A stretch of DNA of 64,000 bases. Source: Minisyncoccota bacterium (GTDB lineage Bacteria; Patescibacteriota; Minisyncoccia; UBA6257; JAGOQP01). Below the pieces are notes generated by a model. That model worked only from the letters and a program-made list of their open reading frames with translations, searched no databases and was not told the origin of the DNA. The DNA lies in assembly GCA_041661795.1 (NCBI GenBank), contig JBAZTS010000002.1, forward strand, positions 36,263-100,262, in the 5' to 3' direction. Shown here in pieces: positions 4,020 to 61,960 of this stretch; position 1 is the first letter of the stretch, and each line of letters opens with the position of its first letter. Both the position numbers and the translations under genes were made by a program.

Positions 4020-4117
4020 GTTGTAAAGTTGGCTATTTATGAATATTATTAACTAATACAGTTTTAAGCATACCTTTAAGTTGGGCTGTTTTCAATGACG
4101 ATTTATTTGACATTTTT

Positions 4118-5374
4118 ATGAAATTTATAGTAAACGGTAATAAAAAACTCAACGGGAACGTTGATATTAAGGGAGCTAAAAATGCCGCCTTAAAAATAAT
4201 TCCCGCGTCTATTCTGGCTTCTTCTCTTTGTGTTATAAAAAATATTCCACAAATAACCGATATAGAAAAACTTCTGGAAATATTAAAAGGAATAGGGTCA
4301 AAAGTTGAATTTAAAGACGGAGTACTCAAGATAGGTAATAAAGACATTAATTCTTTCCATCCGGATGAAAAATTGGTTAATAAATTCAGAGGATCTATAG
4401 TTCTAATCGGTCCTCTTTTGGCGAGATTTGGCGAGGCAGTTCTTAGTGAACCGGGGGGATGTTTAATTGGTTCAAGACCGATTGATGACCATTTAGATCT
4501 TTTTGAGCAAATGGGAGTTGGTATTGAATATAAGGATAATAAATTTTATTTTCACGGGAAACCAAAAAGCGGTCACATAGTTCTAAAAAAGATGAGTGTT
4601 ACGGCAACTGAAAATGCCATTATGGCGTCAGTTTTTTCCAAGGGTATTACTAAAATTCATATAGCGGCGGCTGAACCGGAAATAAAAGATCTGGCTGATT
4701 TTCTCAATAAAATGGGAGCTAAAATAAAGGGAGCCGGAACCAATGAGATAGAAATAGAAGGAGTGGATGAATTAAAAGGAGCGGAGTATGAAGTTTTGCC
4801 GGACAGAATTGAGATGGGAACATATTTAATAGCCGGTATTTTGACTAACTCGGAAATTACAGTTGGTCCGATTATTTCTTGCCATTCTGACCTGTTTTTT
4901 AAAAAATTAAAGGATGTTGGGGCAAAATTTGAAATAATAGAGAAAGACGGCAAAAAATATGTAAGAACTTTAAAAAGAGGGGATTTAATTCCTCAAAACA
5001 TAGACCCAAGACCATATCCGGGATTTGCCACCGATCTTCAGCCCCAATACGCGGTCTTAATGACTCAGGCCCAAGGCAAAACGGAAATTTTTGATACTAT
5101 GTTTGAAGGAAGATTTAGGTATATTGAGGAATTAAAATTAATGAAGGTTGAAGCCGAAATTTTAAATCCCAATAAAGCCATTATAAATGGTCCCGCTCAT
5201 CTAAAGGGAGCCGAGGTGTCGTGTTTGGATATTAGAGCTGGAGTAGCAGTGGTTCTGGCTTCTCTTATAGCGGAAGGAAAAACAACCATAAATAACATTG
5301 AATTTATAGACAGAGGGTACGAGGATATAGATGGAAAGCTAAGAGAGTTGGGGGCGGATATTAAGAGGGAATAA
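4118..5374 (+). CDS. murA: UDP-N-acetylglucosamine 1-carboxyvinyltransferase
   Basis: MKFIVNG..L.G.V.I.GAKNAALKI; active-site loop EPGGCLIGSRPIDDHL; 418 aa. Confidence 0.92.
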   Translation: MKFIVNGNKKLNGNVDIKGAKNAALKIIPASILASSLCVIKNIPQITDIEKLLEILKGIGSKVEFKDGVLKIGNKDINSFHPDEKLVNKFRGSIVLIGPLLARFGEAVLSEPGGCLIGSRPIDDHLDLFEQMGVGIEYKDNKFYFHGKPKSGHIVLKKMSVTATENAIMASVFSKGITKIHIAAAEPEIKDLADFLNKMGAKIKGAGTNEIEIEGVDELKGAEYEVLPDRIEMGTYLIAGILTNSEITVGPIISCHSDLFFKKLKDVGAKFEIIEKDGKKYVRTLKRGDLIPQNIDPRPYPGFATDLQPQYAVLMTQAQGKTEIFDTMFEGRFRYIEELKLMKVEAEILNPNKAIINGPAHLKGAEVSCLDIRAGVAVVLASLIAEGKTTINNIEFIDRGYEDIDGKLRELGADIKRE

Positions 5375-22067: not shown

Positions 22068-22073
22068 CTTAAA

Positions 22074-22428
22074 AGATAAGTGAGTGATTGCCCTGACATT
22101 TGTTGGGGAGGAAAGTCCGGACTCCCATCTCCGACGTAACGTCGGAGTAAACGTATTCGCTAACAGCGAACTATCGCAAGATAAGAGGTGCGAACAGAGA
22201 CGAGTCCTAATGGAAACATTAGGGGTGAAACGGTCCCGACGCCTATTTCGGGTTAGGGACTCCGACATCCGCAAGGATCGTCGGAGCTAAATCCTTGCGG
22301 GGTGCAAGACCGTATCCGCCCAGGGCGGGTGAGTCGCTTGAACCTGAGAGTAATTGAAGGTCCAGACAAATAATCACTATCCCGACGTAACGTCGGGACA
22401 CAGAATCCGGCTTATAGCTTATCTAAAC
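22074..22428 (+). ncRNA. rnpB: RNase P RNA (bacterial type A)
   Basis: GGAGGAAAGTCCGGACTCC (P4 5' strand), AGGGGTGAAACGGT, ACAGAATCCGGCTTATAG (P4 3' strand), P1 pairing agataag/cttatct; GC-rich versus surroundings. Confidence 0.85.
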
Positions 22429-22500
22429 ATATCAAGAATCTCTCCTTAACGGGGGGATTTTTGATTGATTTATTAAGGGTTTTTTGATACTTTTAACAAG

Positions 22501-39278: not shown

Positions 39279-39309
<31 letters not shown>

Positions 39310-39334
39310 TAAAGAGCTATGAAATAAAAAAAGC

Positions 39335-39900
39335 CCGCCGGTGTCTTCCGAGGAAGTCCTGGCGGGGTGGAACAGGTGGTGCGACCTTAGCTCACTCGGT
39401 GCTGTCGAGTTCGCTCGCCCGATATACTCTCCGGGTGATACGAGAGCTCGAATCTGCCGAGACGTGACGCGTGGTCACTTTTTGCTAAGGTTTTTTGGGG
39501 TGCTGCTCCTCTTCCTGTTCGGTACTTTCTAAGAACGGTTCCCACACCGTTCTCGCCGGCGAGCTTAGCTCGCGCAGGGTAGAGGCGCCTCCTAAAGGAG
39601 GCAAAACATGAGTACAAATTCGGAATTGGATTTTTGTGAGTTTCCGGACTCACTATCTCGTTTGGTGCACCTCCCGAGAAGTCCTTTTCCTTCCACTTAT
39701 TATTGGGCCAGTTTGAGATCAGCGGTGGACACTCAAACTGTTTGCGTGCTTTCACCGAGCTTGCCGGATTTACTCGGATCTTTGGTGAGATGGCGCAACC
39801 CCACAGTTTTGACCTCCCTCAGCTGCGCGCGCAACTGAGTTGTCAGCTCACCTAGTGACAGAGGCCCCCTTTTTGACCGTTTTTTCTTCTTGGTCCGGAA
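39335..39900. ncRNA. GC-rich structured non-coding locus (one or two ncRNAs; minus-strand terminator at 39335-39378); identity unresolved, SRP RNA candidate by position upstream of dnaX
   Basis: GC content far above flanks, no protein-like ORF, multiple stems (gtttgag..ctcaaac, ccgag..ctcgg), ccccgccagg...ccggcgggc + T7 on minus strand. Confidence 0.35.
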
Positions 39901-40020
39901 GGGTTTCCGTGCTACATTTTTATGCCTGTATTATACTCCTTTTGTTTTATTTGTCAAGTACCCATAATAAAGTTCTAAAAACCTTGGAATTTAGTGTTTT
40001 TGGCTATATAATTAATTAGT

Positions 40021-51178: not shown

Positions 51179-52666
51179 ATGACTAAGTATATTAAATCTA
51201 AATTAAATAGTTGCTTTTCTTATCCCGATATACGGTCTACGGTTTACAGTTCCCGTTCCTTCACCCTTGTAGAACTCCTCGTCGTCATAGGTATCCTAGC
51301 AGTCCTTACTACAGCAGTCGTTATCATCCTCAATCCTGCTGATTATCTTGCTCAATCTCGTGACTCTAGAAGAATGAATGACCTCTCTCTCCTCAATAAC
51401 TCTCTCCAGAACTTAGAAGCCATAGACCCTACCATATCTTTTGGAACATCTCTTACCGTCTATATCTCCATCCCAGACGATGCTTCTTCTACCTGTGGAA
51501 CCTTAGGATTACCCAATCTTTCTTCAGGATATACATATAACTGTGTCTCTACAGCTAATCTCACCAAAACAGATGGTACAGGTTGGGTTCCTGTCAACTT
51601 TACTACTCAATCTATTGTTCAATTATCTGCTCTTCCTATAGATCCTACTAATACCCCTACAGATGGACTTTATTATACATATACTCCTGGAGGGAGTTGG
51701 CATCTAAGATCTATTCTTGAATCATCTAAATATCAATCCAAAGCTCTAAACGATGGAGGCACATCAGACAACGCCTTTGAAACAGGAACGAACATGGCTC
51801 TTGCTCCAGCAGTATTCCCCAACAACTGGATAAAGGTTCCCGGAAGCTCCACATACAATACCTCTGATTTTTGGGTTATGAAGTATGAGGCCAAGTATGA
51901 CAAGGATAATGATGGAAAAGGAGATGCAACATCATATTGTAGATACGGTGGTTATAATTCAATTTCTATTGGTTGTGTTACTGGTGGCAGTTTTATATCC
52001 TCAGCTTATGGTTTTCCTGTTGCTACCGCTTATTCTGCTTCTGACGCTAACAATGCCTGTTCTTCTACCGGTGCTCATCTTGTTACAAATAACGAATGGA
52101 TGACGATCGCCAGAAATGTAGAACAAGTTGATTCCAACTGGACAGGCGGTTCTGTTGGTTCCGGAAAATTATTTATTGGCAACTATGGTTATTGTTATGG
52201 AGTTAGTAATTGCTATACCTTTAGTGGCACGTTTCAAGATTATGGAACTAATAGAAACTCAAGAGCAAAGTTGACTCTTTCCAATAAGGAAGAAATATAT
52301 GACTTTTCTGGTAATATGGCCGAAAATGTAAAACTCGGATCTTCTTTTGCTATTACCGAAGCAAATCATCCGGATGCGATCAGTATAGGAGATTGGGCCA
52401 ATAATGATTTTTTATCTCTTACTAGTTATGGAGATTTTTCTTCTTATGATAATCTAGGACCATCTGATGACTCATGGACTAATGCCAGTCAAGGAGTTGG
52501 ATATATGTATCATTGCGATGGATGTTCTTCTGGTGGCGCCTCAACAATAATTAGAGGAGGATCAGTTGATTCTCAAGCCGCTGGAGCTCCTGGAATATAT
52601 ACGATTCGTCTGCGTTATATAGGTGGCGATTATAATGCTTATAGTGGTTTTCGCTGCGCTAAATAA
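51179..52666 (+). CDS. Type IV pilin-like protein with C-terminal FGE-sulfatase (SUMF1)-like lectin domain
   Basis: N-terminal SFTLVELLVVIGILAVL prepilin-type motif; AHLVTNNEWMTIAR and IIRGGSV...IRLRY...GFRCAK FGE-domain signatures. Confidence 0.65.
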   Translation: MTKYIKSKLNSCFSYPDIRSTVYSSRSFTLVELLVVIGILAVLTTAVVIILNPADYLAQSRDSRRMNDLSLLNNSLQNLEAIDPTISFGTSLTVYISIPDDASSTCGTLGLPNLSSGYTYNCVSTANLTKTDGTGWVPVNFTTQSIVQLSALPIDPTNTPTDGLYYTYTPGGSWHLRSILESSKYQSKALNDGGTSDNAFETGTNMALAPAVFPNNWIKVPGSSTYNTSDFWVMKYEAKYDKDNDGKGDATSYCRYGGYNSISIGCVTGGSFISSAYGFPVATAYSASDANNACSSTGAHLVTNNEWMTIARNVEQVDSNWTGGSVGSGKLFIGNYGYCYGVSNCYTFSGTFQDYGTNRNSRAKLTLSNKEEIYDFSGNMAENVKLGSSFAITEANHPDAISIGDWANNDFLSLTSYGDFSSYDNLGPSDDSWTNASQGVGYMYHCDGCSSGGASTIIRGGSVDSQAAGAPGIYTIRLRYIGGDYNAYSGFRCAK

Positions 52667-52668
52667 TT

Positions 52669-54618
52669 TTATGAAGATGCTTTTTTAATTGCCTCCATTT
52701 CTTTTTTTATTTGAGTAGCTTTTTCAAACTGTAAATTTCTCTGTGCCATTTCCAGTTTTTGCCTTAATTCTTTCAAATAATCCCTCTTAAATTCACTGCT
52801 GATATTTTTGAACTCTTCGCTTTTCTCTTCTTTATTATCTAATAATGTATTTTTTATTTCTTTTATTATGGCCTGTGGCTTTTTATTGTGTTTGCGATTA
52901 TATTCCTGCTGAATTTTTCTTCTTCTGTCCATTTCGGATATTGCTCCTTTCATTGATTTAGTAGTTTTGTCGGCATACATAATCACATGGCTGTTTAAGT
53001 TTCTGGCAGATCTTCCGGCAATTTGAATGAAAGAAGTTTTATCTCTTAAAAATCCTTCTTTGTCGGCGTCTAAAATAGCTATTAATGAAACTTCAGGTAA
53101 ATCCAATCCCTCTCTTAATAAGTTTATCCCAACCAGAACATCAAACTTTCCGGTTCTCAAATCAAAAAGAATTTTTGGTCTTTCCAATGTATCAATTTCG
53201 GAATGTAAAAACTCAGCTTTTATTTTTTTATCCTTAAAATGTTGAACTAGGGCTTCTGACAAGCGCTTGGTAAGAACAGTTACTAAAACTCTTTCTTTCC
53301 TTTTTATTCTTTCTTCTATTTCTTTTATTAAGTCAGGGATTTGATTTTCCGTGGGGCGAATCTCAGTTTCCGGGTCCAAAAGATAAGTTGGTCTGACAAT
53401 CTGTTGGGCAACCAAAGATGATTTTTCCAATTCATATTCAGCTGGGGTAGCCGAAGCAAACAAACATTTATTTATTTTTGAATGAAACTCGTTAAATTTA
53501 AGAGGTCGATTATCTAAGGCCGATGGTATGCGAAATCCGTGTTCTATAAGAGTTTCTTTTCTGGCTTTGTCGCCGTGATACATCCCTCTTACCTGAGGAA
53601 GAGTCATGTGGGACTCGTCTATAATCATCAAAAAATCTTTAGGAAAATAATCAATCAAAGTGAATGGGGGACTGTCTGGTTTTCTTCCCTCAAAATAACG
53701 GGAATAATTTTCAATTCCTTTACACCAGCCAACTTCAGATATCAAAGCCATATCATAATTAGTCCTTCTCTTGAGACGCTCGGCTTCTATCATTTTTCCT
53801 CTTTCCTGAAGTTTTTTAACTTGTTCTTCCAAATCCAAACGTATATTGGATATGGCTACTTGTCTTACACTCTCTTCCGATGACCAGAATTTTGCCGGAA
53901 ATAAATTAATTTCTTTTATATCTTTACTTTTTCCAAACGGCGCTTCCATTTCCACTATTTTCTCAATTGATTCGTGGTTTATCTTAAATCTGTATAAAAT
54001 ATCTCCTCCCGGGGGCCAAACATCTATAAACTCGGCCCTCTGTCTAAAATTTCCTCTCCAAAAACCAAATTCGTTTCTCTCAAACTGTAAAGTTAGTAAT
54101 TTTTTTAGAAGTTCTCTTTTAGTTGTTTTTTGACCCACTTTTATTTTTAAAGAAAGATTTTTGTATGCCTCTGGAGAACCCAAATTATAAATACAGGAAA
54201 CAGAAGCCACGATTATGGTGTTTGGATTTTTTAAAACTGATTGGACGGCCGCGTGTCTTAGTTTGTCTATCTCTTCATTAATTTGAACTTCCTTTTCTAT
54301 ATAAGTATCGGATGTGGGTAAGTAGGCCTCTGGTTGGTAGTAGTCGTAGTAGGAAACAAAATAATGGACATTGTCTTTAGGAAATATCATTTTAAATTCT
54401 TCATAAAGCTGGGCGGCTAAAGTTTTGTTATGGGAAATAACTAAGGTGGGCTTGTTAAGTGCCTGAATGGTGTGGGCCATAGTAAACGTTTTACCGCTTC
54501 CGGTAACTCCCAAAAGTGTCTGGAATTTATTGTTTTTACGGAACCCAGAAACTATCTGTTTTATAGCTTTGGGTTGATCGCCAGCTGGCTTTAGTTTTTT
54601 TGATATATTAAATGGCAT
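52669..54618 (-). CDS. uvrB: Excinuclease ABC subunit B
   Basis: GVTGSGKTFTMA Walker A, YFVSYYDYYQPEAY beta-hairpin, helicase motifs, C-terminal UVR coiled-coil. Confidence 0.95.
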   Translation of the reverse strand: MPFNISKKLKPAGDQPKAIKQIVSGFRKNNKFQTLLGVTGSGKTFTMAHTIQALNKPTLVISHNKTLAAQLYEEFKMIFPKDNVHYFVSYYDYYQPEAYLPTSDTYIEKEVQINEEIDKLRHAAVQSVLKNPNTIIVASVSCIYNLGSPEAYKNLSLKIKVGQKTTKRELLKKLLTLQFERNEFGFWRGNFRQRAEFIDVWPPGGDILYRFKINHESIEKIVEMEAPFGKSKDIKEINLFPAKFWSSEESVRQVAISNIRLDLEEQVKKLQERGKMIEAERLKRRTNYDMALISEVGWCKGIENYSRYFEGRKPDSPPFTLIDYFPKDFLMIIDESHMTLPQVRGMYHGDKARKETLIEHGFRIPSALDNRPLKFNEFHSKINKCLFASATPAEYELEKSSLVAQQIVRPTYLLDPETEIRPTENQIPDLIKEIEERIKRKERVLVTVLTKRLSEALVQHFKDKKIKAEFLHSEIDTLERPKILFDLRTGKFDVLVGINLLREGLDLPEVSLIAILDADKEGFLRDKTSFIQIAGRSARNLNSHVIMYADKTTKSMKGAISEMDRRRKIQQEYNRKHNKKPQAIIKEIKNTLLDNKEEKSEEFKNISSEFKRDYLKELRQKLEMAQRNLQFEKATQIKKEMEAIKKASS

Positions 54619-54628
54619 AATTTTCTGC

Positions 54629-54658
54629 CACCTTTTTGGTCAGAAAAAGGTGGCGCCA
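54629..54658 (-). promoter_or_regulatory. 12-bp-stem hairpin in uvrB 5' UTR containing the only SD-like AAGGTGG
   Basis: gccaccttttt ggtcag aaaaaggtggc 9 nt upstream of uvrB ATG. Confidence 0.4.
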
Positions 54659-54842
54659 AAACTGACAACCCTGTATATCCTCTCAAACAAATGAAACAAA
54701 TATCTCGCTTTGTCTTGAACTCGTATCTGCTATACTCACACACTCAAGACACTAAAAGCTCATATTTGCTTTATTTGTTAGTGTTCGGACATACGGGTTG
54801 ATATTTAGCTAATAATAGCCCTAAATCTAGTGTTTGTTAATA

Positions 54843-54871
54843 TTGACTTATTAGTAATAATATGATATACT
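54843..54871 (+). promoter_or_regulatory. Near-consensus sigma70 promoter (TTGACT-N17-TATACT) driving GC-rich gene
   Basis: Hexamers and spacing; ~90 nt upstream of 54963 ATG. Confidence 0.45.
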
Positions 54872-54962
54872 CAAAACAAGTTTCGAAACCGCTTCACTGC
54901 CGTGAACAACACTACAGAAAGAGCGGTCGGAGCACTGCTCTTTCACAGAAAGGGGAACTTCG

Positions 54963-55361
54963 ATGAGTGGGATCGCTTGGTTTTTCGAGGTGTTCGCTCT
55001 GCTGTTTTTCGTGGGGACTCTGGGCGTTGCTTTCATCGGACGCCGCATCCTCAAGGCGGAGCAGGAGTCGTCGGTTCTGATGTCTTTCCTCCAGATCTGC
55101 AGTGGAGCGCTCTTCATCTTCTACGTTTTCGGACTGGGTCAACTCATGGCTCTGTCTGGACTGGAAGGTGCAAGGGCGCCCCGGTGGCTGATTCCGGGCA
55201 CCTACATCACTCTCACCATCTTCAGCGCGTTGACTCGGCTGGCTCTTCCAAGGTGGGGCAGTGACAACAAAGCGATGCAACTCTGGAGTGTCGTCAGCGT
55301 CCTGACGTTCCTACTCGGCACGTTCTGCCTCGGGGCGTACTCGTCCAACTACTTCGAGTAG
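54963..55361 (+). CDS. GC-anomalous (foreign-looking) 4-TM membrane protein, unknown function
   Basis: 132 aa, GC3-rich codons in an AT-rich genome, AGGGGA RBS, own terminator. Confidence 0.6.
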   Translation: MSGIAWFFEVFALLFFVGTLGVAFIGRRILKAEQESSVLMSFLQICSGALFIFYVFGLGQLMALSGLEGARAPRWLIPGTYITLTIFSALTRLALPRWGSDNKAMQLWSVVSVLTFLLGTFCLGAYSSNYFE

Positions 55362-55385
55362 GTCTCCTTCTTCAGCTCTTCAACT

Positions 55386-55421
55386 GGCGGCGTCTCTCAC
55401 GAGGCGCCGCACTGCTTTTTA
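55386..55421. terminator. Bidirectional terminator (gcggcgtctc tcac gaggcgccgc + T-run)
   Basis: GC stem between GC-rich gene and uvrC 3' end. Confidence 0.6.
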
Positions 55422-55467
55422 TATGGTTATAAAATTTATATAAATTTCCCCGTCAATATAAATCCGC

Positions 55468-56607
55468 TTAATCGGTATATGTCCGTGACCGACGTAGTCG
55501 GTGGTATCGTATAGCAAATCTGTGGGCTTCGTTTCTTAACGAAAGTAATGTATTTTTAACATCTTCGGGGATTTGGCTCAAGCTGATAGGGGATTTTGAA
55601 TAGGGACTGTAAATCAATCCTTTTGTTTGTGATCTTTTATATTTCTTGCCAACATCGTTAATTAACTTACCATTACAATTAGAACGATCGTTGTAATTGT
55701 AATGGTGTGGATTATTACCCACAGATTGCAATTTGCCCACGTTTAGTTTTGCTAGAGCTATCATCGGAATCTTAATTGTTTTGAGTTGTGAGATTTGTGA
55801 TTTTCCTCCGTCAATGATAATTAAATCCGGATATTTCCATTCTTTGTGGTTAAGGCGTCTTTCTATAATTTCTTTTATTGAAGCCGGGTCATTGGCTCCT
55901 TTTATCGTTTTTATTTTAAATTTTCTGTAAAGATTTTTATTAGGTTTATTTCCGATAAACGTTACCATTGAGCCAACTGACAAACTACCTTGGGTATTGG
56001 AAATGTCGTAGCACTCAATATGTGTTTTTTCTCCATTATATAAACGAAGAAAAGTTTTTAATCCATTAACCACCTGGATGTATTTTTTTACTTCGATATT
56101 ATGAGCGGAACATAACCCTAAGTGATAATACAAGCACGGCTTTTCCGGTTTATTTTTACATGTGCGATAGGGGAATATTCTTCTGATTATCAATAAGAGA
56201 TGCTTAATCTCTTTTGCGTCTACAAACGGGCCAACAAAATCGGCTTTAAATTTTTTTGTTTGGTGTGTTAAAAGCACTCTGGGGTACTTTTCGTCGGTAA
56301 AAGCTATATACAAAAAATCCTTGTCATCTTTAAGTTCAATGTTATATTTTGGCTGATACTGTCTAACTAATTTTCTTTCTAAAATCAAGGCGTCTTTTTC
56401 AGATGGGGTTTCTATAAAATCTAAGTCAGCTACTTGTTTGTAAAAATTAATAGAAGCATTCTCTTGTCTAGAAAAATGCGATTCTATTCTCTTTTTTATA
56501 TTAATAGCTTTTCCGATATACAAAATCTTCTCATTCTTATCTTTGAAAATATATACTCCCGGTTTCTTAGGAAGTGCTTTTATCTTATTCTTCAGGATTG
56601 TTTTCAC
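55468..56607 (-). CDS. uvrC: Excinuclease ABC subunit C, short form lacking C-terminal (HhH)2 region; GTG start; contains in-frame palindrome insertion
   Basis: GIY-YIG PGVYIFKDKNEKILYIGKA, UvrC Cys-region, RNEAHRFAIRYHR motif near C-terminus; 379 aa vs ~600 typical. Confidence 0.8.
   Translation of the reverse strand: MKTILKNKIKALPKKPGVYIFKDKNEKILYIGKAINIKKRIESHFSRQENASINFYKQVADLDFIETPSEKDALILERKLVRQYQPKYNIELKDDKDFLYIAFTDEKYPRVLLTHQTKKFKADFVGPFVDAKEIKHLLLIIRRIFPYRTCKNKPEKPCLYYHLGLCSAHNIEVKKYIQVVNGLKTFLRLYNGEKTHIECYDISNTQGSLSVGSMVTFIGNKPNKNLYRKFKIKTIKGANDPASIKEIIERRLNHKEWKYPDLIIIDGGKSQISQLKTIKIPMIALAKLNVGKLQSVGNNPHHYNYNDRSNCNGKLINDVGKKYKRSQTKGLIYSPYSKSPISLSQIPEDVKNTLLSLRNEAHRFAIRYHRLRRSRTYTD
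55670..55705. repeat. 36-bp palindrome copy 1 (CCATTACAATTAGAACGATCGTTGTAATTGTAATGG) inside uvrC coding sequence, in-frame
   Basis: One mismatch from perfect symmetry; translated as ...YNYNDRSNCNGKLIN... Confidence 0.6.
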
Positions 56608-56645
56608 TGTTTTTTTATTTTTATCCTTATCTTAATCTTAATCTA

Positions 56646-56681
56646 CCATTACATTTAGAACGATCGTTCTAAATGTAATGG
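56646..56681. repeat. 36-bp perfect palindrome copy 2 (CCATTACATTTAGAACGATCGTTCTAAATGTAATGG), 39 nt upstream of uvrC start and abutting PaaX-like gene stop
   Basis: Perfect symmetry with symmetric A/T change relative to copy 3. Confidence 0.6.
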
Positions 56682-56684
56682 TGG

Positions 56685-57245
56685 CTAGATTTTCTTTATA
56701 GTCCCCATTTTTCCTATTTCCAATATCTCCACGTATTCGTTTATTCTCATTTTTTCTAAATCTTCCACAAACTTTTTAGGAATTTTTATTTTTCCTATCC
56801 AGACACTTTTTTGCAACATTTCAAATCCAATATTCTTTACAGCTGATCTTAACCAAGCCCTCTTCCTTTTAAATTTTTCCGGAACATCAAAAGCTATCAA
56901 AATAACATTGTTTCCGGCTTCTTTCTTATAATCTAAAGCTGGAGATTGATTATTGGATACCCGGTTAATAAGTTTTTTGGCTTTTTTAGTAATCTTGATA
57001 ATCAACCCCTCTTTTTGTTCTATGAGTCCGTCTTTCTTAAGACGATAAATCATTACCCTATATCTGTTTCTTATTTTTTCTTTCTCTGTTTTGATAGTCT
57101 CATTTTTAGTGCCGATTCTATTTAAATTGTCTCTTAATATAGACGTTGAGCCCCAAGAGAATAAAAACGCTTCAAAAGCATTAGAGTATGTTTGTCTATC
57201 TACATTATTTAGAAAACTTATTGTTTCTCTATTTCTTGCCCTCAT
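56685..57245 (-). CDS. PaaX-like transcriptional regulator (wHTH + PaaX middle-domain-like fold)
   Basis: RLKKDGLIEQKEG wHTH; VILIAFDVPEKFKRKRAWLRSAVKNIGFEMLQKSVWIGKIKIP matches PaaX W..LV.S.PE..R..R..LR..L...GFG.LQ.SVWI. Confidence 0.55.
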   Translation of the reverse strand: MRARNRETISFLNNVDRQTYSNAFEAFLFSWGSTSILRDNLNRIGTKNETIKTEKEKIRNRYRVMIYRLKKDGLIEQKEGLIIKITKKAKKLINRVSNNQSPALDYKKEAGNNVILIAFDVPEKFKRKRAWLRSAVKNIGFEMLQKSVWIGKIKIPKKFVEDLEKMRINEYVEILEIGKMGTIKKI

Positions 57246-57270
57246 AACAATATTATATCATCATTTATTA

Positions 57271-57306
57271 CCATTACAATTAGAACGATCGTTCTAATTG
57301 TAATGG
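57271..57306. promoter_or_regulatory. 36-bp perfect palindrome copy 3 overlapping putative leaderless promoter (TTGTAA-N16-TATAAT) of PaaX-like gene
   Basis: CCATTACAATTAGAACGATCGTTCTAATTGTAATGG; TATAAT 6 nt before the ATG. Confidence 0.5.
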
Positions 57307-57417
57307 AGGGAGTATATATGATTAAGAATATTAAATAATTATCATAGAGTTATTATGATTATAGATTGATTTTATCGTTTTAATTAAAGAGTGCCTTATA
57401 AATTAGCACGGACCGCT

Positions 57418-57570
57418 TTATGGGCGGTCCGGGATGGGTGGAGCGGGTGCGGGCTTGACCACTTTGGCCACGAGGCCGATTAATATGGTCAGCATTGAAA
57501 CGGGTACTACGGTGGCGATGATGACGGACGATTCCACCACCACCAGAGACCACTTGACTAGGTAGTGCAT
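57418..57570 (-). CDS. GC-rich tiny membrane protein (50 aa, MHYLVKWSLVVVESSVIIATVVPVSMLTILIGLVAKVVKPAPAPPIPDRP)
   Basis: AAAGGAGG SD; overlaps upstream ORF stop; followed by hairpin cggaccgc...gcggtccg. Confidence 0.4.
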   Translation of the reverse strand: MHYLVKWSLVVVESSVIIATVVPVSMLTILIGLVAKVVKPAPAPPIPDRP

Positions 57571-57689
57571 TCAACCTCCTTTCTTCTGAGAATCTTGGTG
57601 ATCCACAGATAGAGGTTGTATCCTGTTTGAATAACGTGGGCCATCTTTTGGCCCAGTATTGTCGTCCGATGAAACGTTGTTGTAGACAT
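57558..57689 (-). CDS. GC-rich tiny protein (43 aa, MSTTTFHRTTILGQKMAHVIQTGYNLYLWITKILRRKEVECTT)
   Basis: AAAGGAGACGTG-ATG SD; same frame as C-terminal part of listed ORF 57558-57860. Confidence 0.35.
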   Translation of the reverse strand: MSTTTFHRTTILGQKMAHVIQTGYNLYLWITKILRRKEVECTT

Positions 57690-57703
57690 CACGTCTCCTT
57701 TGG

Positions 57704-57949
57704 TTAGGCGATGGCGCCGGGGTATTCTTCGGAGATCTTCTCGATCTCTTTTTCCTCTTTCTTCACTTGGTCTGTGAGCACAAGGAAGAAAAAGATGATG
57801 GCCATGATTCCCACAAGAGTGGCAAAGGCCCATGAAAAGCTCTTGGGGAGTTGGAACCATCGTGATAAGTGATATCCTCCAAAAGTGAGAATTACCACGG
57901 CCACGGTCGCTCCAACTTTACGGAGCAAGTTGAGTAGTCCCGGGAACAT
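57704..57949 (-). CDS. GC-rich small membrane protein (81 aa, 2 TM)
   Basis: AGGAGG SD 6 nt upstream; hydrophobic helices. Confidence 0.5.
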   Translation of the reverse strand: MFPGLLNLLRKVGATVAVVILTFGGYHLSRWFQLPKSFSWAFATLVGIMAIIFFFLVLTDQVKKEEKEIEKISEEYPGAIA

Positions 57950-58193
57950 TACTCTCCTCCTTTTTGGTGTACATCTTTCGAAGTTTCTCCTGTAGAGCGT
58001 TGAGCCCCGTGAAGACCAGGGCTCCGGTCAGAAACCCGATACAAGCCAACGATCCTCGGATCTCCAATCCTGGAGGCAGTGGAACTCGGTCTGCCCATAG
58101 GACCGTGAAGAAACAGGAAGCAGCAGTTGAAAGGCCAACGAAAGTGAACCAAACCACTCTTGCGATCAACTCCAGAACTTTTCCGATTTTCAT
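57918..58193 (-). CDS. GC-rich small membrane protein (91 aa, 2-3 TM)
   Basis: GGAGGA SD 8 nt upstream; hydrophobic helices. Confidence 0.5.
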   Translation of the reverse strand: MKIGKVLELIARVVWFTFVGLSTAASCFFTVLWADRVPLPPGLEIRGSLACIGFLTGALVFTGLNALQEKLRKMYTKKEESNVPGTTQLAP

Positions 58194-58280
58194 GCTCTGA
58201 TCCTCCTCTGTTTTTCACATTATAATAATCATTGAATTTTGTCCATGTTTGATTTAGAATAACCCTTTGGTTGGCATTTT

Positions 58281-61193
58281 ATGAAAAAAGAGAATCAATC
58301 AATAGAAATAATCGGGGCGCGTGTCCACAACTTAAAAAATGTGGATGTTTCTATACCTAAAAATAAATTGGTAGTTGTTTGCGGAGTTTCTGGTTCCGGA
58401 AAATCATCTTTAGCTTTTGATACTTTATACGAAGAGGGACAGAGAAGATATTTAGAAAGTTTGTCCTCTTATGTCAGACAGTTTTTAGGAGGATTTAAAA
58501 AACCAGATGTTGAAAAAATAATCGGCTTGTCTCCGACTATCGCCATCAACCAAAAAAGCGTTTCTTCCAATCCGCGTTCAACTGTGGGCACAATAACTGA
58601 AATTTACGATCATCTCCGTCTTCTCTTTGCTCGAGTTGGAATTCCTCATTGTCCAAATGACAACATTGTCATAACCGCTCAGACACCACAAGAAATCGCC
58701 AATAGAATTATTGACTTGGCTCATAACAACGAAATTGTTTTGCTGGCTCCAATAATCTCGGGGAAAAAGGGTCAGCACCAGGCGATTTTTGACGAGATTG
58801 AGAGGGGCGGATATTCACAGGTCAGGGTTGATGGGTATTTTTATCCCATTGCCGAAGCCAAAAATATTTCTCTGGATAAAAATAAAAAACACGATATCGA
58901 AGTTACCGTAGGTAAGTTTTTTACTGGAGTAAAAATAGATATCCAAAGAAATATATCCAAAATGGAAAGAGAGGCATTGAAAAACAAAAATAAAAAGATA
59001 GATAAGTTGATAAAAGAAGAAAAGTTAGAACTTTTAGAAAACATCAGAAAAGGACTGGCCATGGGGCAGGGAAATATTGTTGCTCATACCAAGGGGAAGG
59101 ATTTTTCCTTTTCCGAGAATTATTCCTGTTCTAAATGCGGATTTTCTTTACCCAAAATTGAACCCAGAACTTTTTCATTCAACAGTCCTTTTGGAGCTTG
59201 TAAAAATTGTCAGGGATTGGGAACTAAACTTGAAATAGATTTGGATTTGATAATCAACCCGGAAATCTCTTTGGAAGCGGGAGCTATAAAGCCCTGGTTT
59301 TCTTTAAGCCGTATGGGAAGAAGAGCTCTTGGCGCCAATTGGCAGAGATTTGTTACTGAGACCATTATTAGGGATTCTGGGCTGTCCCCAAGAACTCCTT
59401 TTGGAAAACTTCCCAAAGAAGTCCAGGATAAAATTTTATATGGTGATAAAGAAAATTATACTCATCTTAAAGACGGCGATTGGGAAGGAAAAACTTTATT
59501 TGAGGGAATTATTCCTCGCTTGGAGCGACTTTATTACGAAACTGAATCTGATTTTATCAGACAGGAACTTTCTAAATACATGCTTGAAAAAACCTGTCCC
59601 GTTTGTAATGGGTCGCGTTTAAGAGAAGAAGCATTGGCGGTAAGAGTGGGAGGAAAGAACATTTCTGAATTGACTTCAATGGCGGTTTTGGATTTTGTTA
59701 GTTTTTGCCAAAAACATATTTATGAAAAAATGTCGGAAAATCAAAAAACGGTTGCTGTTTCAATAATCAAAGAAATTTCCACTAAATCAAATTTTTTAAT
59801 TAACGTTGGTTTGGAATATATGAACTTGGGAAGGTCAGCGACTACTTTGTCAGTAGGAGAAAATCAAAGAATCCGCCTGGCTACCCAGTTGGGTTCTGGA
59901 TTGTCTGGAGTGATTTATGTTTTAGACGAACCGACTATTGGGCTTCATCCTCGCGACACTGACCGTCTCATAAAAACATTAAAAGAACTTAGAGATTTAA
60001 ATAATACCGTGATTGTGGTGGAACATGATGAGAGGGTTATAGAAAGCGCCGATTGGGTTATTGAAATTGGACCATTAGCCGGAGAAGAAGGTGGCAAGGT
60101 TGTTTTTGAAGGAACGCCATCAGATTTGAAAAAATCAAAAACGTTAACTGGATTATATTTTGCCGGCAAGAAAAAAGCGCAATCGGGACTTTCTAAAAAT
60201 AATTCTGAAAATAAAGAATTTATAAAACTGTATGGCGCTTCACAGTTTAATTTAAAAAACATAAATCTTTCCATTCCTTTAAAAAAATTTGTCTGTGTGG
60301 CAGGAGTTTCGGGCTCGGGTAAAAGCACGTTAATGTTAGATGTTTTTGCCAAGGCCCTTCAGAAAGAAGTTCTTAGGATGAGCGTGGCTGTAGGTGAATA
60401 TAAAAAACTTGAGGGGGAAAGAAATATAGACAAAGTGGTTATTATTGACCAAAGTCCTATCGGCAGAACCCCTCGTTCCAATCCGGCTACTTATACGGGA
60501 ATTTTTACTCCCATTAGACAATTTTTCACTCGCTTGGAAGAGTCGCAGATAAGGGGATATGGGCCATCATATTTTAGTTTCAACGTTAAGCCGGGAAGAT
60601 GTGAGGCCTGCAGAGGGGAAGGATTTAAAAAGGTGGAGATGTATTTTTTGCCGGATATGTACGTAGAGTGTGAAGTTTGTAAAGGCACCAGATTTTCTCC
60701 CGAGGTTTTGGATGTTAAATATAAAAACAAAAACATTGCTGATGTTCTTTCTATGAGCGTTAAGGAAGCGCTGGCGTTTTTTCACCAGTTTCCTTTTATT
60801 GGCGATAAGTTAAAAATTCTTGATGAAATCGGTCTTGGATATATGAAACTGGGACAGCCGGCGACAACTTTGTCGGGAGGAGAAGCTCAAAGGATAAAAC
60901 TTTCCGATGAACTTGCCAAAAGAGCTACAGGAAGGACTATTTATATTTTAGACGAACCGACTGTGGGACTTCACTTTGAAGACACAAAAAAACTTTTATA
61001 TATTTTGCGCTCGTTGGTTCTAAAAGGTAATACGGTTTTAGTTATAGAACACAATCCTGATGTTTTAAAAGAATCGGACTGGATTATTGAACTTGGTCCC
61101 GAAGGTGGAGACAAGGGAGGAAAAATAATTTTTGAGGGAACACTGGAAGAGATAAAAAAGAAAAAAACAATGACGGGGAAGTATTTAATATGA
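58281..61193 (+). CDS. uvrA: Excinuclease ABC subunit A
   Basis: Two ABC modules ([20 protein letters not shown]), Zn fingers CSKCGF...[12 protein letters not shown]...CEVCKG; 970 aa. Confidence 0.95.
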
Positions 61194-61411
61194 AGATAAT
61201 AATCATCGTAAAACCAAATAAAAAAGAAAATAAGGTTGTGAAAATAGGAGAGAACATTTTTGAAATTTATACGAATCAACCGGCTAAAGAAAATAAAGCC
61301 AATTTGGATATTATTCAACAAATGTCCAAGTATTTTAAAGTATCAAAATCAAAGGTTTCTATATCTTCCGGATTAAAGTCAAAGAAGAAAATTTTGGAAA
61401 TAAATATATAA
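61190..61411 (+). CDS. DUF167 (YggU/UPF0235) family protein
   Basis: VKPN.K.....I......I....P..E.KAN.....Q..K.F.VSKS.V.I.SGL.SK.K.L.I. Confidence 0.65.
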   Translation: MKIIIIVKPNKKENKVVKIGENIFEIYTNQPAKENKANLDIIQQMSKYFKVSKSKVSISSGLKSKKKILEINI

Positions 61412-61443
61412 AAAAAGGGGGCTCCCGGTGTTGCTGGGAGCCC
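61411..61443 (-). terminator. Minus-strand terminator (gggctcccagcaacaccgggagccc + T7)
   Basis: Perfect stem followed by TTTTTTT on minus strand, ending GC-rich island. Confidence 0.5.
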
Positions 61444-61960
61444 AAAGTGCGGTAAGGAGGTCAATGTACGATGCGGTGCCTGCCGTGCGTCGCTTCGCTC
61501 GTTCGGGTCTTGGTGGTTCAGATCAGGGCCAGTCGTGCCCGAAAACTTAACTTTCTGGCCCATTGCTTCTCGGCACGCATGGTTTCTCCTTGCATGGATT
61601 TTTGGTCCACGCAGCTCTGCCCTCAGCGCTTGACGGTGGCCTCGTCGTTGGTGCGGTGGTTGTTCTGACGCTGTTGCATGGGATTTCTCCTCGCGTGAAC
61701 GTCGTCGGTTGTTGGTGCTAGCTATGGCTCAAGTCAAGCTTTCTTTTCGGTGAGCTTGACGAGCAGTGCTAGCGCCTGTTCTGGGTTTCGTTTTTTATCG
61801 GTATAACCTTCACAAGGTTATACCAGGGTTTCCTTCCTGATTGGCGGTCAAGAAGGTTGTTTAATCATCCAGCATTGTCCTAACTAACGGAACGGCGGTT
61901 CGACGTCCACGTGCATCGCTTTCCTCCTTATGTAGTTTACTTATTTCAGGATAAAACAAA
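61444..61960. other. GC-rich non-coding island (candidate structured RNA or degraded foreign DNA) in convergent intergenic region
   Basis: GC content well above flanks, stops in most frames, hairpins (ggtataacc..ggttatacc), possible minus-strand promoter TTGACT near 61950 and terminator at 61411-61443. Confidence 0.3.

What the first reader, a model, noticed from the sequence alone, without database searches (positions are those of the whole stretch)
54843..56607. Short uvrC lacking the (HhH)2 C-terminus, immediately followed by a GC-anomalous membrane-protein gene with a host-type promoter
uvrC ends about 14 residues after the conserved EAHRFAI..R motif (379 aa; canonical UvrC is ~600 aa with a C-terminal endonuclease subdomain plus (HhH)2). 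Directly downstream, on the other strand, lies a 132-aa 4-TM protein gene whose codons are strongly GC3-rich, in a roughly one-third-GC genome. It is nonetheless driven by a near-consensus TTGACT-N17-TATACT promoter and closed by its own terminator. This is either a recent insertion of foreign DNA that removed the uvrC 3' end, or a lineage-specific short UvrC (Cho-like) next to horizontally acquired cargo.
Basis: partly seen in the sequence, partly recalled or inferred. Interest (0 to 1): 0.6.

Follow-up and report, generated by a model that had tools for sequence, protein, structure and literature searches.

The report
Native mini-UvrC beside acquired membrane-protein gene
The short uvrC is not damaged: it is the normal, stripped-down form of this repair nuclease in a whole group of tiny-genome bacteria, and the GC-rich gene next to it is a self-contained, almost family-less membrane-protein gene that was dropped into the otherwise tight uvrC-uvrB junction.

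Summary

**uvrC (55468-56607, minus strand; 379 aa)** is complete. Seventy-two relatives are 337-427 aa long and all stop 11-33 residues after EAHRFA. The gene encodes a minimal UvrC: GIY-YIG nuclease, Cys-rich motif and catalytic RNase H domain. It lacks the UvrB-binding UVR helices, the central RNase H1 platform and (HhH)2. Both active sites are conserved, so it is not Cho-like.

**orf132 (54963-55361, plus strand)** is real coding sequence. Its GC3 is 0.74 against 0.30 +/- 0.035 for host genes, and it has four predicted helices. It sits in a sharply bounded GC-rich unit of about 540 bp with its own promoter-like site and terminator. The unit lies between uvrC and uvrB, which are 1-101 nt apart in all five relatives examined. 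A separate per-run assembly is 100% identical across both junctions, so a chimera is unlikely. Its only homologue among about 15 billion proteins (29% identity) is also a GC-rich gene in an AT-rich contig.

**Most likely reading:** a horizontally acquired, moron-like cassette. Its function is unknown.

**Also found:** a 38-nt palindromic element translated in frame inside uvrC.

The parts
52669..54618 (-). uvrB (649 aa). In relatives it lies directly downstream of uvrC on the same strand.
   Evidence: Pfam UvrB, UvrB_inter and Helicase_C. The C-terminus has only a sub-threshold UVR match (17.3 bits vs cut-off 21.5). Synteny.
54812..54840 (-). Promoter-like site (TTAACA-N17-TATTAT) facing uvrB, back to back with the orf132 promoter-like site.
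   Evidence: Consensus scan, 10 of 12 matches. Consensus match only.
54843..54871 (+). Promoter-like site TTGACT-N17-TATACT with an upstream TG, in a 30-nt stretch of 13% GC.
   Evidence: Best-scoring site in 4 kb, but such sites are not rare in this AT-rich DNA.
54875..55412 (+). GC-rich block of about 540 bp with sharp edges. It coincides with the predicted transcript: 5' leader, orf132 and terminator stem.
   Evidence: 30-nt GC steps: 0.13 to 0.43-0.53 at about 54870, and 0.70 to 0.20 at about 55410. GC profile.
54963..55361 (+). orf132: a 132-aa protein with four predicted helices, probably in the membrane. A near-orphan.
   Evidence: GC1/2/3 = 0.53/0.44/0.74 and T at codon position 2 = 0.41. 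One full-length homologue, P0123: 29% identity, phmmer E = 4e-6 for the whole library, pairwise E = 2e-14. Synonymous sites are saturated. Helices. No family in Pfam, PHROGs, NCBIfam or PADLOC.
55387..55420 (+). Intrinsic-terminator-like hairpin (10 pairs, 8 G-C) plus T-run, closing orf132.
   Evidence: sequence.
55468..56607 (-). uvrC, minimal form (379 aa): GIY-YIG 1-98, beta motif about 99-128, Cys-rich C150/C158/H162/C166, helix 170-190, RNase H2 194-378.
55662..55707 (.). Copy 1 of a 38-46-nt palindromic repeat, inside the uvrC coding sequence and in frame. It encodes HHYNYNDRSNCNGK (residues 301-314) in a disordered loop.
   Evidence: The loop is 45 aa against 5-24 aa in 72 relatives. 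pLDDT is below 50 only at 297-325.
56638..56683 (.). Copy 2 of the palindrome, between the orf186 stop codon and the uvrC start codon.
56685..57245 (-). orf186: a protein matching the PaaX_M/Cas2-like domain, flanked by palindrome copies 2 and 3. Absent from this position in relatives.
   Evidence: Pfam PaaX_M E = 1e-11, Cas2 E = 4e-5, and a sub-threshold Mrr_N match in the N-terminal part. Source names include 'DNA-binding transcriptional regulator PaaX'. Relatives.
57263..57308 (.). Copy 3 of the palindrome. It overlaps the -35 hexamer of the promoter-like site upstream of orf186.
57361..58222 (-). Second GC-rich island (49% GC): four small ORFs of 91, 81, 42 and 50 aa. Each is preceded by a strong Shine-Dalgarno sequence, and three have hydrophobic segments.
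   Evidence: All are singleton clusters.
58281..61193 (+). uvrA (970 aa). In relatives it is divergent from uvrC, which is either 44-133 nt away or separated from it by one variable gene.

Best explanation
Two independent things sit side by side.

**1. uvrC is intact and native.** It encodes a minimal UvrC that is the standard form in Paceibacterota and neighbouring candidate-phyla lineages.
- It has an N-terminal GIY-YIG nuclease (3' incision), a small beta motif, a Cys-rich metal motif and one helix. These lead straight into the catalytic RNase H domain (5' incision).
- Three canonical modules are missing: the UVR helices that dock on the UvrB C-terminus, the inactive RNase H1 platform, and the (HhH)2 DNA-binding tail.
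- Inference: because both catalytic centres are conserved and the gene stays in a uvrA-uvrC-uvrB cluster, it most likely still makes both cuts. It would be recruited to UvrB-DNA through contacts other than the UVR coiled coil, as Cho is in E. coli.

**2. orf132 is a self-contained transcription unit** of about 0.55-0.6 kb: promoter-like site, roughly 85-nt leader, a gene for a small protein with four predicted membrane helices, and a hairpin terminator.
- It was inserted on the opposite strand into the uvrC-uvrB junction.
- Its codon usage shows it came from a GC-rich donor. GC-rich lineages occur among this genome's closest UvrC relatives.
- In anatomy it works like a phage 'moron': an autonomously expressed accessory gene added between two genes that are adjacent elsewhere.
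- Guess: the product most likely acts at the cell envelope, for example as an immunity or exclusion type of small membrane protein. This last step is not shown.
For: **UvrC**
- More than 100 closest homologues are 337-463 aa with only GIY-YIG, UvrC_M and the RNase H domain.
- All 73 aligned sequences end 11-33 residues after EAHRFA.
- Invariant residues are Y19, Y30, R40, E77 and N89 in GIY-YIG, and D201, D266 and H362 in the RNase H domain.
- It passes the NCBIfam uvrC cut-off at 299.3 bits against 285.45.
- PDB sequence matches cover only residues 1-98 and 194-376.
- The AlphaFold model (pLDDT 89, pTM 0.82) goes from helix 170-190 directly into the RNase H fold.
- Foldseek hits are the UvrC C-terminal half (8b0q, 2nrt) and GIY-YIG (1yd6).
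- D. radiodurans UvrC without (HhH)2 keeps dual incision; only the 5' cut is partly impaired (PMC10085695).

**orf132**
- Codon periodicity and a GC3 of 0.74, which is 12.6 SD above host genes; native TM proteins are 0.23-0.38.
- Its codon log-likelihood score of -0.746 equals the mean of genes from a 56%-GC relative, -0.744.
- The GC edges are sharp and fall at the predicted transcript ends.
- uvrC and uvrB are adjacent in 5 of 5 relatives, with gaps of 28, 27, 101, 1 and 5 nt.
- A Logan per-run contig is 100% identical over 54409-56674, and a second MAG has 1 mismatch in 12.4 kb.
- The homologue P0123 has the same length and helix pattern, with saturated synonymous sites. The protein, not the DNA, is what is conserved.
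Against: - No activity, expression or topology data exist.
- The promoter is only a consensus match, and such matches are not significantly enriched here.
- No donor was found. Nothing matched among about 15 billion proteins, GTDB species genomes, viral contigs, phages or plasmids.
- The only homologue is itself a GC-rich gene in an AT-rich contig. This fits two independent recent transfers less comfortably than a family whose GC-richness is maintained.
- No integrase, tRNA or target-site duplication marks the insertion.
- UvrB keeps a weak UVR-like C-terminus, whose partner in this system is unknown.
- Only 64 kb of the genome was visible, so a second, full-length UvrC elsewhere cannot be excluded.
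Confidence: 0.75

Rival explanations
1. A recent insertion of foreign DNA deleted the uvrC 3' end, leaving a truncated and possibly defective gene.
For: The protein is about 220 aa shorter than canonical UvrC, and foreign-looking DNA starts 56 nt beyond its stop codon.
Against: 72 relatives of 337-427 aa end at the same point. Five relatives with no insertion have the same short protein followed directly by uvrB. The model is compact and confident.
Confidence: 0.02
2. The GC-rich segment is an assembly chimera or a contaminating fragment.
For: There is an abrupt GC shift of more than 20 points inside a MAG contig.
Against: A Logan contig from run SRR6484324 covers uvrB-orf132-uvrC at 100% identity and is seen in 2 samples. 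Two separately deposited MAGs carry the locus. The window holds other GC-rich islands of the same kind.
Confidence: 0.02
3. The island is a structured non-coding RNA gene, as GC-rich islands in AT-rich genomes often are (for example RNase P RNA at 22072-22430). On this reading the 132-codon ORF is a by-product of the scarcity of stop codons.
For: ORFs of 88-132 aa are open in four frames of the island. The GC-rich block equals the predicted transcript, untranslated ends included.
Against: There is strong three-base periodicity in one frame only. A full-length protein homologue exists whose DNA has diverged at synonymous sites. No Rfam match appears even at E <= 1. The leader fold is not better than shuffles, z = -1.6.
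Confidence: 0.04
4. orf132 is not a recent import. It belongs to a rare family, resident in candidate-phyla bacteria, whose high GC content is maintained by selection on the mRNA or on translation rather than inherited from a donor.
For: The only homologue, 29% identical and therefore anciently diverged, is also 54.5% GC with GC3 of 0.67, inside an AT-rich contig whose flanks are 24-44% GC. No GC-rich donor lineage carries the family in any collection searched.
Against: With two members there is no statistical power. The gene is absent from the same junction in 5 of 5 relatives. The leader has no significant structure. The taxonomy of the homologue's 1.9-kb contig is unknown.
Confidence: 0.15

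Closest known systems
Canonical bacterial UvrC (E. coli, T. maritima, D. radiodurans; about 600 aa)
   Same: The GIY-YIG 3'-incision domain has all catalytic residues. A Cys-rich motif is present. The RNase H-type 5'-incision domain has the D-D-H triad. The gene lies in a cluster with uvrA and uvrB. The protein passes the NCBIfam UvrC equivalog cut-off.
   Different: It lacks the UVR/UvrB-binding helices (alpha7-alpha8 of the four-helix bundle), the central inactive RNase H1 platform and (HhH)2 (domain map from PMC10085695). It has three Cys plus one His instead of four Cys. It carries an in-frame palindrome-encoded loop of about 20 residues.
Cho (UvrC homologue, E. coli YdjQ)
   Same: It is a short UvrC-family nuclease without the UVR motif, so it must contact UvrB in another way. 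That statement about Cho rests on established knowledge of the protein, not on a test here.
   Different: Cho has only the GIY-YIG half and makes only the 3' cut. This protein keeps the C-terminal nuclease. Its score against the Cho model is 67 bits against a cut-off of 367.
UvrC with UVR but without RNase H1 or (HhH)2, about 430-460 aa, in other candidate-phyla bacteria (e.g. P0105, P0116)
   Same: Same clade-level reduction and same C-terminal end point.
   Different: Those proteins retain the UVR motif (PF02151, E = 2e-10 in P0105). The window protein has lost that as well.
Phage 'morons' (Juhala and Hendrix: a gene with its own promoter and terminator, inserted between genes that are adjacent in related genomes, with deviant base composition). 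Cited from my own knowledge.
   Same: orf132 is a single gene with a promoter-like site and an intrinsic terminator. It lies between genes adjacent in 5 of 5 relatives. Its composition differs strongly from the flanks.
   Different: It is in a bacterial chromosome within a DNA-repair cluster, not in a phage or prophage. No phage family matches it.
Rickettsia palindromic elements, and REP or MITE-type bacterial palindromic repeats. This comparison applies to the palindrome inside uvrC.
   Same: It is a repeated palindromic DNA found both between genes and in frame inside essential genes (uvrC here, murF in L010), where it is translated into a surface loop.
   Different: It is much shorter: 38-46 nt, against roughly 100-150 nt for the Rickettsia elements by my recollection. 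Only three clustered copies occur in 64 kb. Two of them flank a PaaX/Cas2-like gene, so a role as an operator is equally possible. No transposase is known.

Membership tests
UvrC (excinuclease ABC subunit C) | N-terminal GIY-YIG nuclease with conserved Tyr, Tyr, Arg, Glu and Asn | tested here: met
   Pfam GIY-YIG E = 2e-13. PDB 1yd6 E = 4e-22. Y19, Y30, R40, E77 and N89 are invariant in 73 sequences.
UvrC (excinuclease ABC subunit C) | C-terminal RNase H-like endonuclease domain with the D-D-H triad | tested here: met
   PF08459 E = 6e-34 over residues 194-366. D201, D266 and H362 are invariant. Foldseek hits 8b0q and 2nrt.
UvrC (excinuclease ABC subunit C) | UVR motif (UvrB-binding helices) | tested here: not met
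   No PF02151 match at E <= 0.1. The same search finds it in the control P0105 at E = 2e-10. The model has a single helix, 170-190, before the RNase H fold.
UvrC (excinuclease ABC subunit C) | Central RNase H1 platform domain (PMC10085695) | tested here: not met
   Only about 25 residues lie between the Cys-rich motif and RNase H2.
UvrC (excinuclease ABC subunit C) | C-terminal (HhH)2 domain | tested here: not met
   The protein ends 13 residues after EAHRFAI, and no HhH match is found.
UvrC (excinuclease ABC subunit C) | Curated whole-protein score (NCBIfam TIGR00194 equivalog) | tested here: met
   299.3 bits against a cut-off of 285.45.
UvrC (excinuclease ABC subunit C) | Genomic association with uvrA and uvrB | tested here: met
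   True in the window and in 5 of 5 relatives.
UvrC (excinuclease ABC subunit C) | UvrAB-dependent dual incision of damaged DNA | not testable with these tools
   Needs biochemistry.
Cho | GIY-YIG half only, with no C-terminal nuclease; curated score NF007833 | tested here: not met
   The RNase H nuclease is present. The score is 67.3 bits against a cut-off of 367.
Moron-type autonomous gene cassette | Inserted between genes that are adjacent in related genomes | tested here: met
   uvrC-uvrB gaps are 1-101 nt in 5 of 5 relatives, against 849 nt here.
Moron-type autonomous gene cassette | Own promoter and own factor-independent terminator | tested here: inconclusive
   Consensus matches lie at 54843-54871 and 55387-55420. 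There are no transcription data.
Moron-type autonomous gene cassette | Base composition different from the neighbours | tested here: met
   57% GC against 33-35% in the flanking genes, and GC3 of 0.74 against 0.30.
Moron-type autonomous gene cassette | Resides in a phage or prophage genome | tested here: not met
   The neighbours are uvrB and uvrC. There are no PHROG or phage matches.
In-frame palindromic selfish elements (Rickettsia-type) | Palindromic repeat present in frame inside protein-coding genes and tolerated there | tested here: met
   Present in uvrC (window) and murF (L010), in the same frame and with the same TAG-to-TAC change. In the UvrC model it forms a disordered loop.
In-frame palindromic selfish elements (Rickettsia-type) | Many dispersed copies per genome | tested here: inconclusive
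   Only 3 copies occur in 64 kb, all within 1.7 kb. There is 1 further exact match in JGI metagenomes and 0 in GTDB representatives or viral contigs. The rest of the genome was not available.

The most novel reading that the evidence does not exclude
On this reading, the uvr cluster of this Paceibacterota genome is being colonised by two kinds of selfish or accessory DNA.

**1. GC-rich moron-like cassettes.** These are orf132, the four-peptide cassette at 57.4-58.2 kb, and perhaps the islands at 39.3-39.95 and 61.4-61.9 kb.

**2. A very small (38-46 nt) palindromic element that can insert in frame into essential genes and be translated.** This has so far been described mainly for Rickettsia. 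It would possibly be bound or mobilised by the PaaX/Cas2-like protein orf186, which it flanks.

In addition, the minimal UvrC would be a natural experiment. It would show that dual-incision excision repair can run without the UVR contact, the RNase H1 platform and (HhH)2.
Probability: 0.3. Interest if true: 0.65.

Novelty: new variant of a known kind. Interest (0 to 1): 0.4.

Why it matters
**Minimal UvrC.** Textbook excision repair holds that UvrC is recruited through a UVR-UVR contact with UvrB and positioned by (HhH)2. Recent work added a central RNase H1 platform. A large natural clade that keeps both nucleases but none of these three modules gives a direct handle on what is truly essential for dual incision. 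It also bears on how reduced-genome bacteria economise on repair proteins. In practical terms, these proteins are currently annotated as generic 'GIY-YIG nuclease family protein', which hides the presence of a complete UvrABC set.

**orf132.** The cassette is an ordinary case of gene gain, but it is a clean example of how accessory genes enter very small genomes: as complete promoter-gene-terminator units splitting a conserved operon.

**In-frame palindrome.** If the palindrome proves to be mobile, it would extend 'selfish DNA inside proteins' to candidate-phyla bacteria.

Tried and rejected
- **RNA gene hypothesis.** Rfam was run at gathering score on the whole window, and at E <= 1 on 54600-58400. 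Neither found anything in the island. The leader fold gave z = -1.6. Rejected.
- **Family assignment of orf132.** Pfam, PHROGs, NCBIfam and PADLOC gave no match.
- **Homologue searches for orf132.**
  - The word-indexed search of 5.8 billion proteins found only the query itself.
  - The exhaustive HMMER search found one true homologue, plus one spurious hit to a 1117-aa repeat protein.
  - The profile search with both members found nothing new.
  - Degenerate-pattern scans of GTDB genomes and viral contigs found nothing.
  - tblastn against the phage and plasmid collections found nothing.
- **Structure of orf132.** The model had pLDDT 61, too low for a meaningful fold search, so none was run.
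- **Marks of insertion.** No target-site duplications or repeats flank the island, and no tRNA or integrase lies nearby.
- **Relatives in fetched loci.** No relative of orf186 or of the island-2 peptides was found in any fetched locus. All are singleton clusters.
- **Palindrome in L010's murF.** Alignments to solved MurF structures stop before the palindrome-encoded peptide, so I could not show that it is an insertion there.
- **Literature.** No paper in the held library describes this UvrC architecture in candidate-phyla bacteria. That is absence from the library, not proof of novelty.
Full report
**Source and setting.** The window is 35.9% GC. It matches contigs of a 'Candidatus Paceibacterota bacterium' MAG, GCA_041664185.1, with 1 mismatch in 12.4 kb. 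Around the finding the gene order is uvrB (52669-54618, minus), orf132 (54963-55361, plus), uvrC (55468-56607, minus), orf186 (56685-57245, minus), a second GC-rich island (57361-58222), then uvrA (58281-61193, plus).

**Observation.**
- uvrC is 379 aa and ends 13 residues after EAHRFAI.
- orf132 is 57% GC with GC1/2/3 = 0.53/0.44/0.74.
- A TTGACT-N17-TATACT site with an upstream TG lies at 54843-54871. A hairpin of 10 pairs plus a T-run lies at 55387-55420.

Two cautions apply. Promoter-like matches are common in this AT-rich DNA: 15 were found against 9.5 +/- 3.4 expected. The island is also open in four frames for 88-132 codons, so the ORF as such proves nothing.

What does carry weight is the three-base periodicity in one frame. 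GC3 lies 12.6 SD above 53 host ORFs (0.301 +/- 0.035, maximum 0.384). Native multi-TM proteins are at 0.23-0.38, which excludes a simple membrane-protein effect.

**Is it an RNA gene or an artefact?** GC-rich islands in AT-rich genomes are often RNA genes, and the RNase P RNA at 22072-22430 is one such island. For this island, however:
- Rfam finds nothing even at E <= 1.
- The leader folds no better than shuffles.
- A protein homologue exists (see below).

A Logan assembly of run SRR6484324 yields a 2266-nt contig that is 100% identical to window 54409-56674. It spans the uvrB start, the whole island and all of uvrC. Two separately deposited MAGs also carry the locus. A chimera is therefore unlikely, although read-level coverage could not be checked.

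**The short UvrC is native.**
- The closest homologues listed (120, drawn from 7986 significant hits) are 337-463 aa. They carry only GIY-YIG, UvrC_M and the UvrC RNase H domain, and the more distant ones of about 430-460 aa add UVR. Where named, they are Paceibacterota, Portnoybacteria, Nealsonbacteria and similar.
- In an alignment of 73, all end 11-33 residues after EAHRFA (median 14).
- Five relatives with long contigs have the same short protein followed directly by uvrB.

- The window protein matches solved structures only over residues 1-98 (GIY-YIG) and 194-376 (RNase H2).
- A confident AlphaFold model (pLDDT 89, pTM 0.82) shows GIY-YIG, three beta strands, a helix, the Cys-rich loop (C150, C158, H162, C166) and one helix (170-190). 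That helix leads straight into the RNase H fold.
- Foldseek confirms both nuclease domains.

Three modules are therefore missing: the UVR helices, RNase H1 and (HhH)2. There is no PF02151 match, whereas the control P0105 has one at E = 2e-10.

The catalytic residues of both nucleases are invariant across the clade. The protein passes the NCBIfam UvrC equivalog cut-off (299.3 vs 285.45 bits) and is far below the Cho cut-off (67 vs 367 bits). 'Cho-like' is thus not an apt description.

**How the minimal UvrC probably works (inference).** It most likely still makes both incisions.
- In D. radiodurans, deleting (HhH)2 leaves dual incision at a wild-type rate, with only the 5' cut partly impaired. 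(HhH)2 is not needed for UvrB binding either (PMC10085695).
- The same paper states that the UvrB-UvrC interaction is needed for the 3' cut. A UvrC without UVR must therefore dock differently, as Cho is known to do (my own knowledge).
- UvrB here retains only a sub-threshold UVR-like C-terminus: 17.3 bits against a cut-off of 21.5.

I found no paper describing this architecture.

**orf132 is inserted DNA.**
- In 5 of 5 relatives, uvrC is followed by uvrB on the same strand with gaps of 28, 27, 101, 1 and 5 nt. This lies within wider conserved synteny: adh_short, DUF167, uvrA, uvrC, uvrB, HD, TGT, QueA.
- In the window the gap is 849 nt.
- The GC-rich block has sharp edges. GC rises from 13% to 43-53% at about 54870, and falls from 70% to 20% at about 55410. 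These edges coincide with the predicted transcription start and the terminator stem.
- A second promoter-like site faces uvrB, back to back with the first, at 54812-54840.

The unit therefore has the anatomy of a phage 'moron', although it sits in a chromosome and has no phage matches.

**Origin of orf132.**
- Its codon log-likelihood score (host vs a 56%-GC relative) is -0.746. Genes of that relative average -0.744, and host genes average +0.84 +/- 0.11.
- The loci of the closest UvrC relatives span 34-56% GC, so GC-rich donors exist among the closest relatives found.
- No donor was identified. The protein is alone in the 5.8-billion-protein index.
- An exhaustive HMMER search of representatives of about 15 billion proteins found one true homologue, P0123: 131 aa, 29% identity, E = 4e-6, pairwise E = 2e-14.
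- A two-sequence profile and the DNA-level scans added nothing.

P0123 has the same length and helix pattern and shares motifs (YVFG.G.L and PG.Y..TI). Codons at identical residues are mostly different: only 9 of 32 are the same. Selection therefore acts on the protein.

Strikingly, P0123 is also a GC-rich gene (54.5% GC, GC3 0.67) with a GC-rich hairpin, in an AT-rich contig. This keeps alive a minority reading in which the family's GC-richness is maintained rather than inherited. I give that reading 0.15.

**Function of orf132.** There is no family, no informative neighbours and a low-confidence model with four helices. The anatomy is a single small membrane protein, autonomously expressed and recently gained. 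On that basis I commit, weakly, to an envelope-level accessory role such as immunity or exclusion. This is a guess and is labelled as such.

**Palindromic element inside the finding's coordinates.** A 38-46-nt palindrome, ACCATTACA(A/T)TTAGAACGATCGTTCTAA(A/T)TGTAATGGT, occurs three times in the window, all within 1.7 kb, against 0 expected by chance.
- Two copies flank orf186, a PaaX_M/Cas2-like protein. One of them overlaps the -35 hexamer of orf186's promoter-like site.
- The third copy lies inside uvrC, in frame, and encodes HHYNYNDRSNCNGK.
- That loop is 45 residues long, against 5-24 in 72 relatives. It is the only disordered segment of the model, residues 297-325.
- The intergenic copies contain TAG in that frame. 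The uvrC copy has TAC instead.
- The one other exact match in JGI metagenomes (L010) lies inside a murF-type ligase gene. It is in the same frame, has the same TAG-to-TAC change, and encodes DHYNYNDRSKCNGE.
- There are no matches in GTDB species representatives or in viral contigs.

This resembles palindromic elements that insert into genes and are translated, as in Rickettsia. An operator role for the two intergenic copies is equally possible.

**Verdict.**
- The truncation-by-insertion idea is refuted.
- The reading 'lineage-specific short UvrC next to acquired cargo' is supported, with the correction that the protein is a minimal dual-nuclease UvrC and not Cho-like.
- The orphan cassette itself is an ordinary kind of event. 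The minimal UvrC and the in-frame palindrome are the parts that merit follow-up.

Noticed in passing
window 55662-55707, 56638-56683, 57263-57308; L010 108-146: A 38-46-nt palindrome occurs three times within 1.7 kb. One copy is in frame inside uvrC and encodes HHYNYNDRSNCNGK in a disordered loop that relatives lack. Two copies flank orf186. A further copy in another organism lies in frame inside a murF-type gene, with the same stop-removing TAG-to-TAC change.
   Followed up: partly
window 57361-58222 (minus strand): A second GC-rich island lies between orf186 and uvrA. It is a compact cassette of four small ORFs (91, 81, 42 and 50 aa), each preceded by a strong Shine-Dalgarno sequence. Three have hydrophobic segments and GC3 is 0.53-0.72. 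All are singleton protein clusters with no family.
   Followed up: partly
window 56685-57245 (minus strand): orf186 matches PaaX_M/Cas2-like models and is annotated by sources as Cas2 or PaaX. It is inserted between uvrA and uvrC, where three of five relatives have no gene and the other two have an unrelated one. The palindrome overlaps the -35 hexamer of its predicted promoter, which suggests autoregulation.
   Followed up: partly
window 61358-61922: A GC-rich island (51% GC) lies between the DUF167 gene and adh_short. It has no convincing ORF, only tiny SD-led ORFs of 18-30 codons on the minus strand. A strong hairpin with a run of T on the plus strand lies at about 61417-61445. There is no Rfam match above noise.
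   Followed up: partly
window 39283-39950: A GC-rich island (50% GC) lies upstream of dnaX. It has no dominant reading frame and no Rfam match at E <= 5. It may be an undescribed structured RNA or another foreign cassette.
   Followed up: partly
window 54628-54655: A perfect 11-bp inverted repeat, GCCACCTTTTT...AAAAAGGTGGC, lies just upstream of the uvrB start codon. On the uvrB mRNA its 3' arm contains the Shine-Dalgarno sequence (AAGGTGG), so it could sequester the ribosome-binding site.
   Followed up: no
L006 2905-4917: In a relative (GCA_027423295.1), the uvrA|uvrC junction holds a 670-aa CLIPPER-domain gene. Part of that gene (3704-4783) is 59% GC, in a locus that is 45% GC overall. In L009 the same junction holds a 238-aa gene with no family. 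This junction appears to be a recurrent landing site for foreign genes.
   Followed up: no
window 51179-52666: A 495-aa type IV pilin-like protein (hydrophobic N-terminal helix; faint N_methyl hit on record) occupies the position where most relatives have an HD-domain gene, between uvrB and TGT.
   Followed up: no
window 56600-56645; L004 5960-6003: uvrC has no Shine-Dalgarno sequence. Only a few nucleotides separate a TAAAAT/TATAAT-like box from its start codon, both here and in the 56%-GC relative. This suggests leaderless or near-leaderless uvrC mRNAs in this clade.
   Followed up: no
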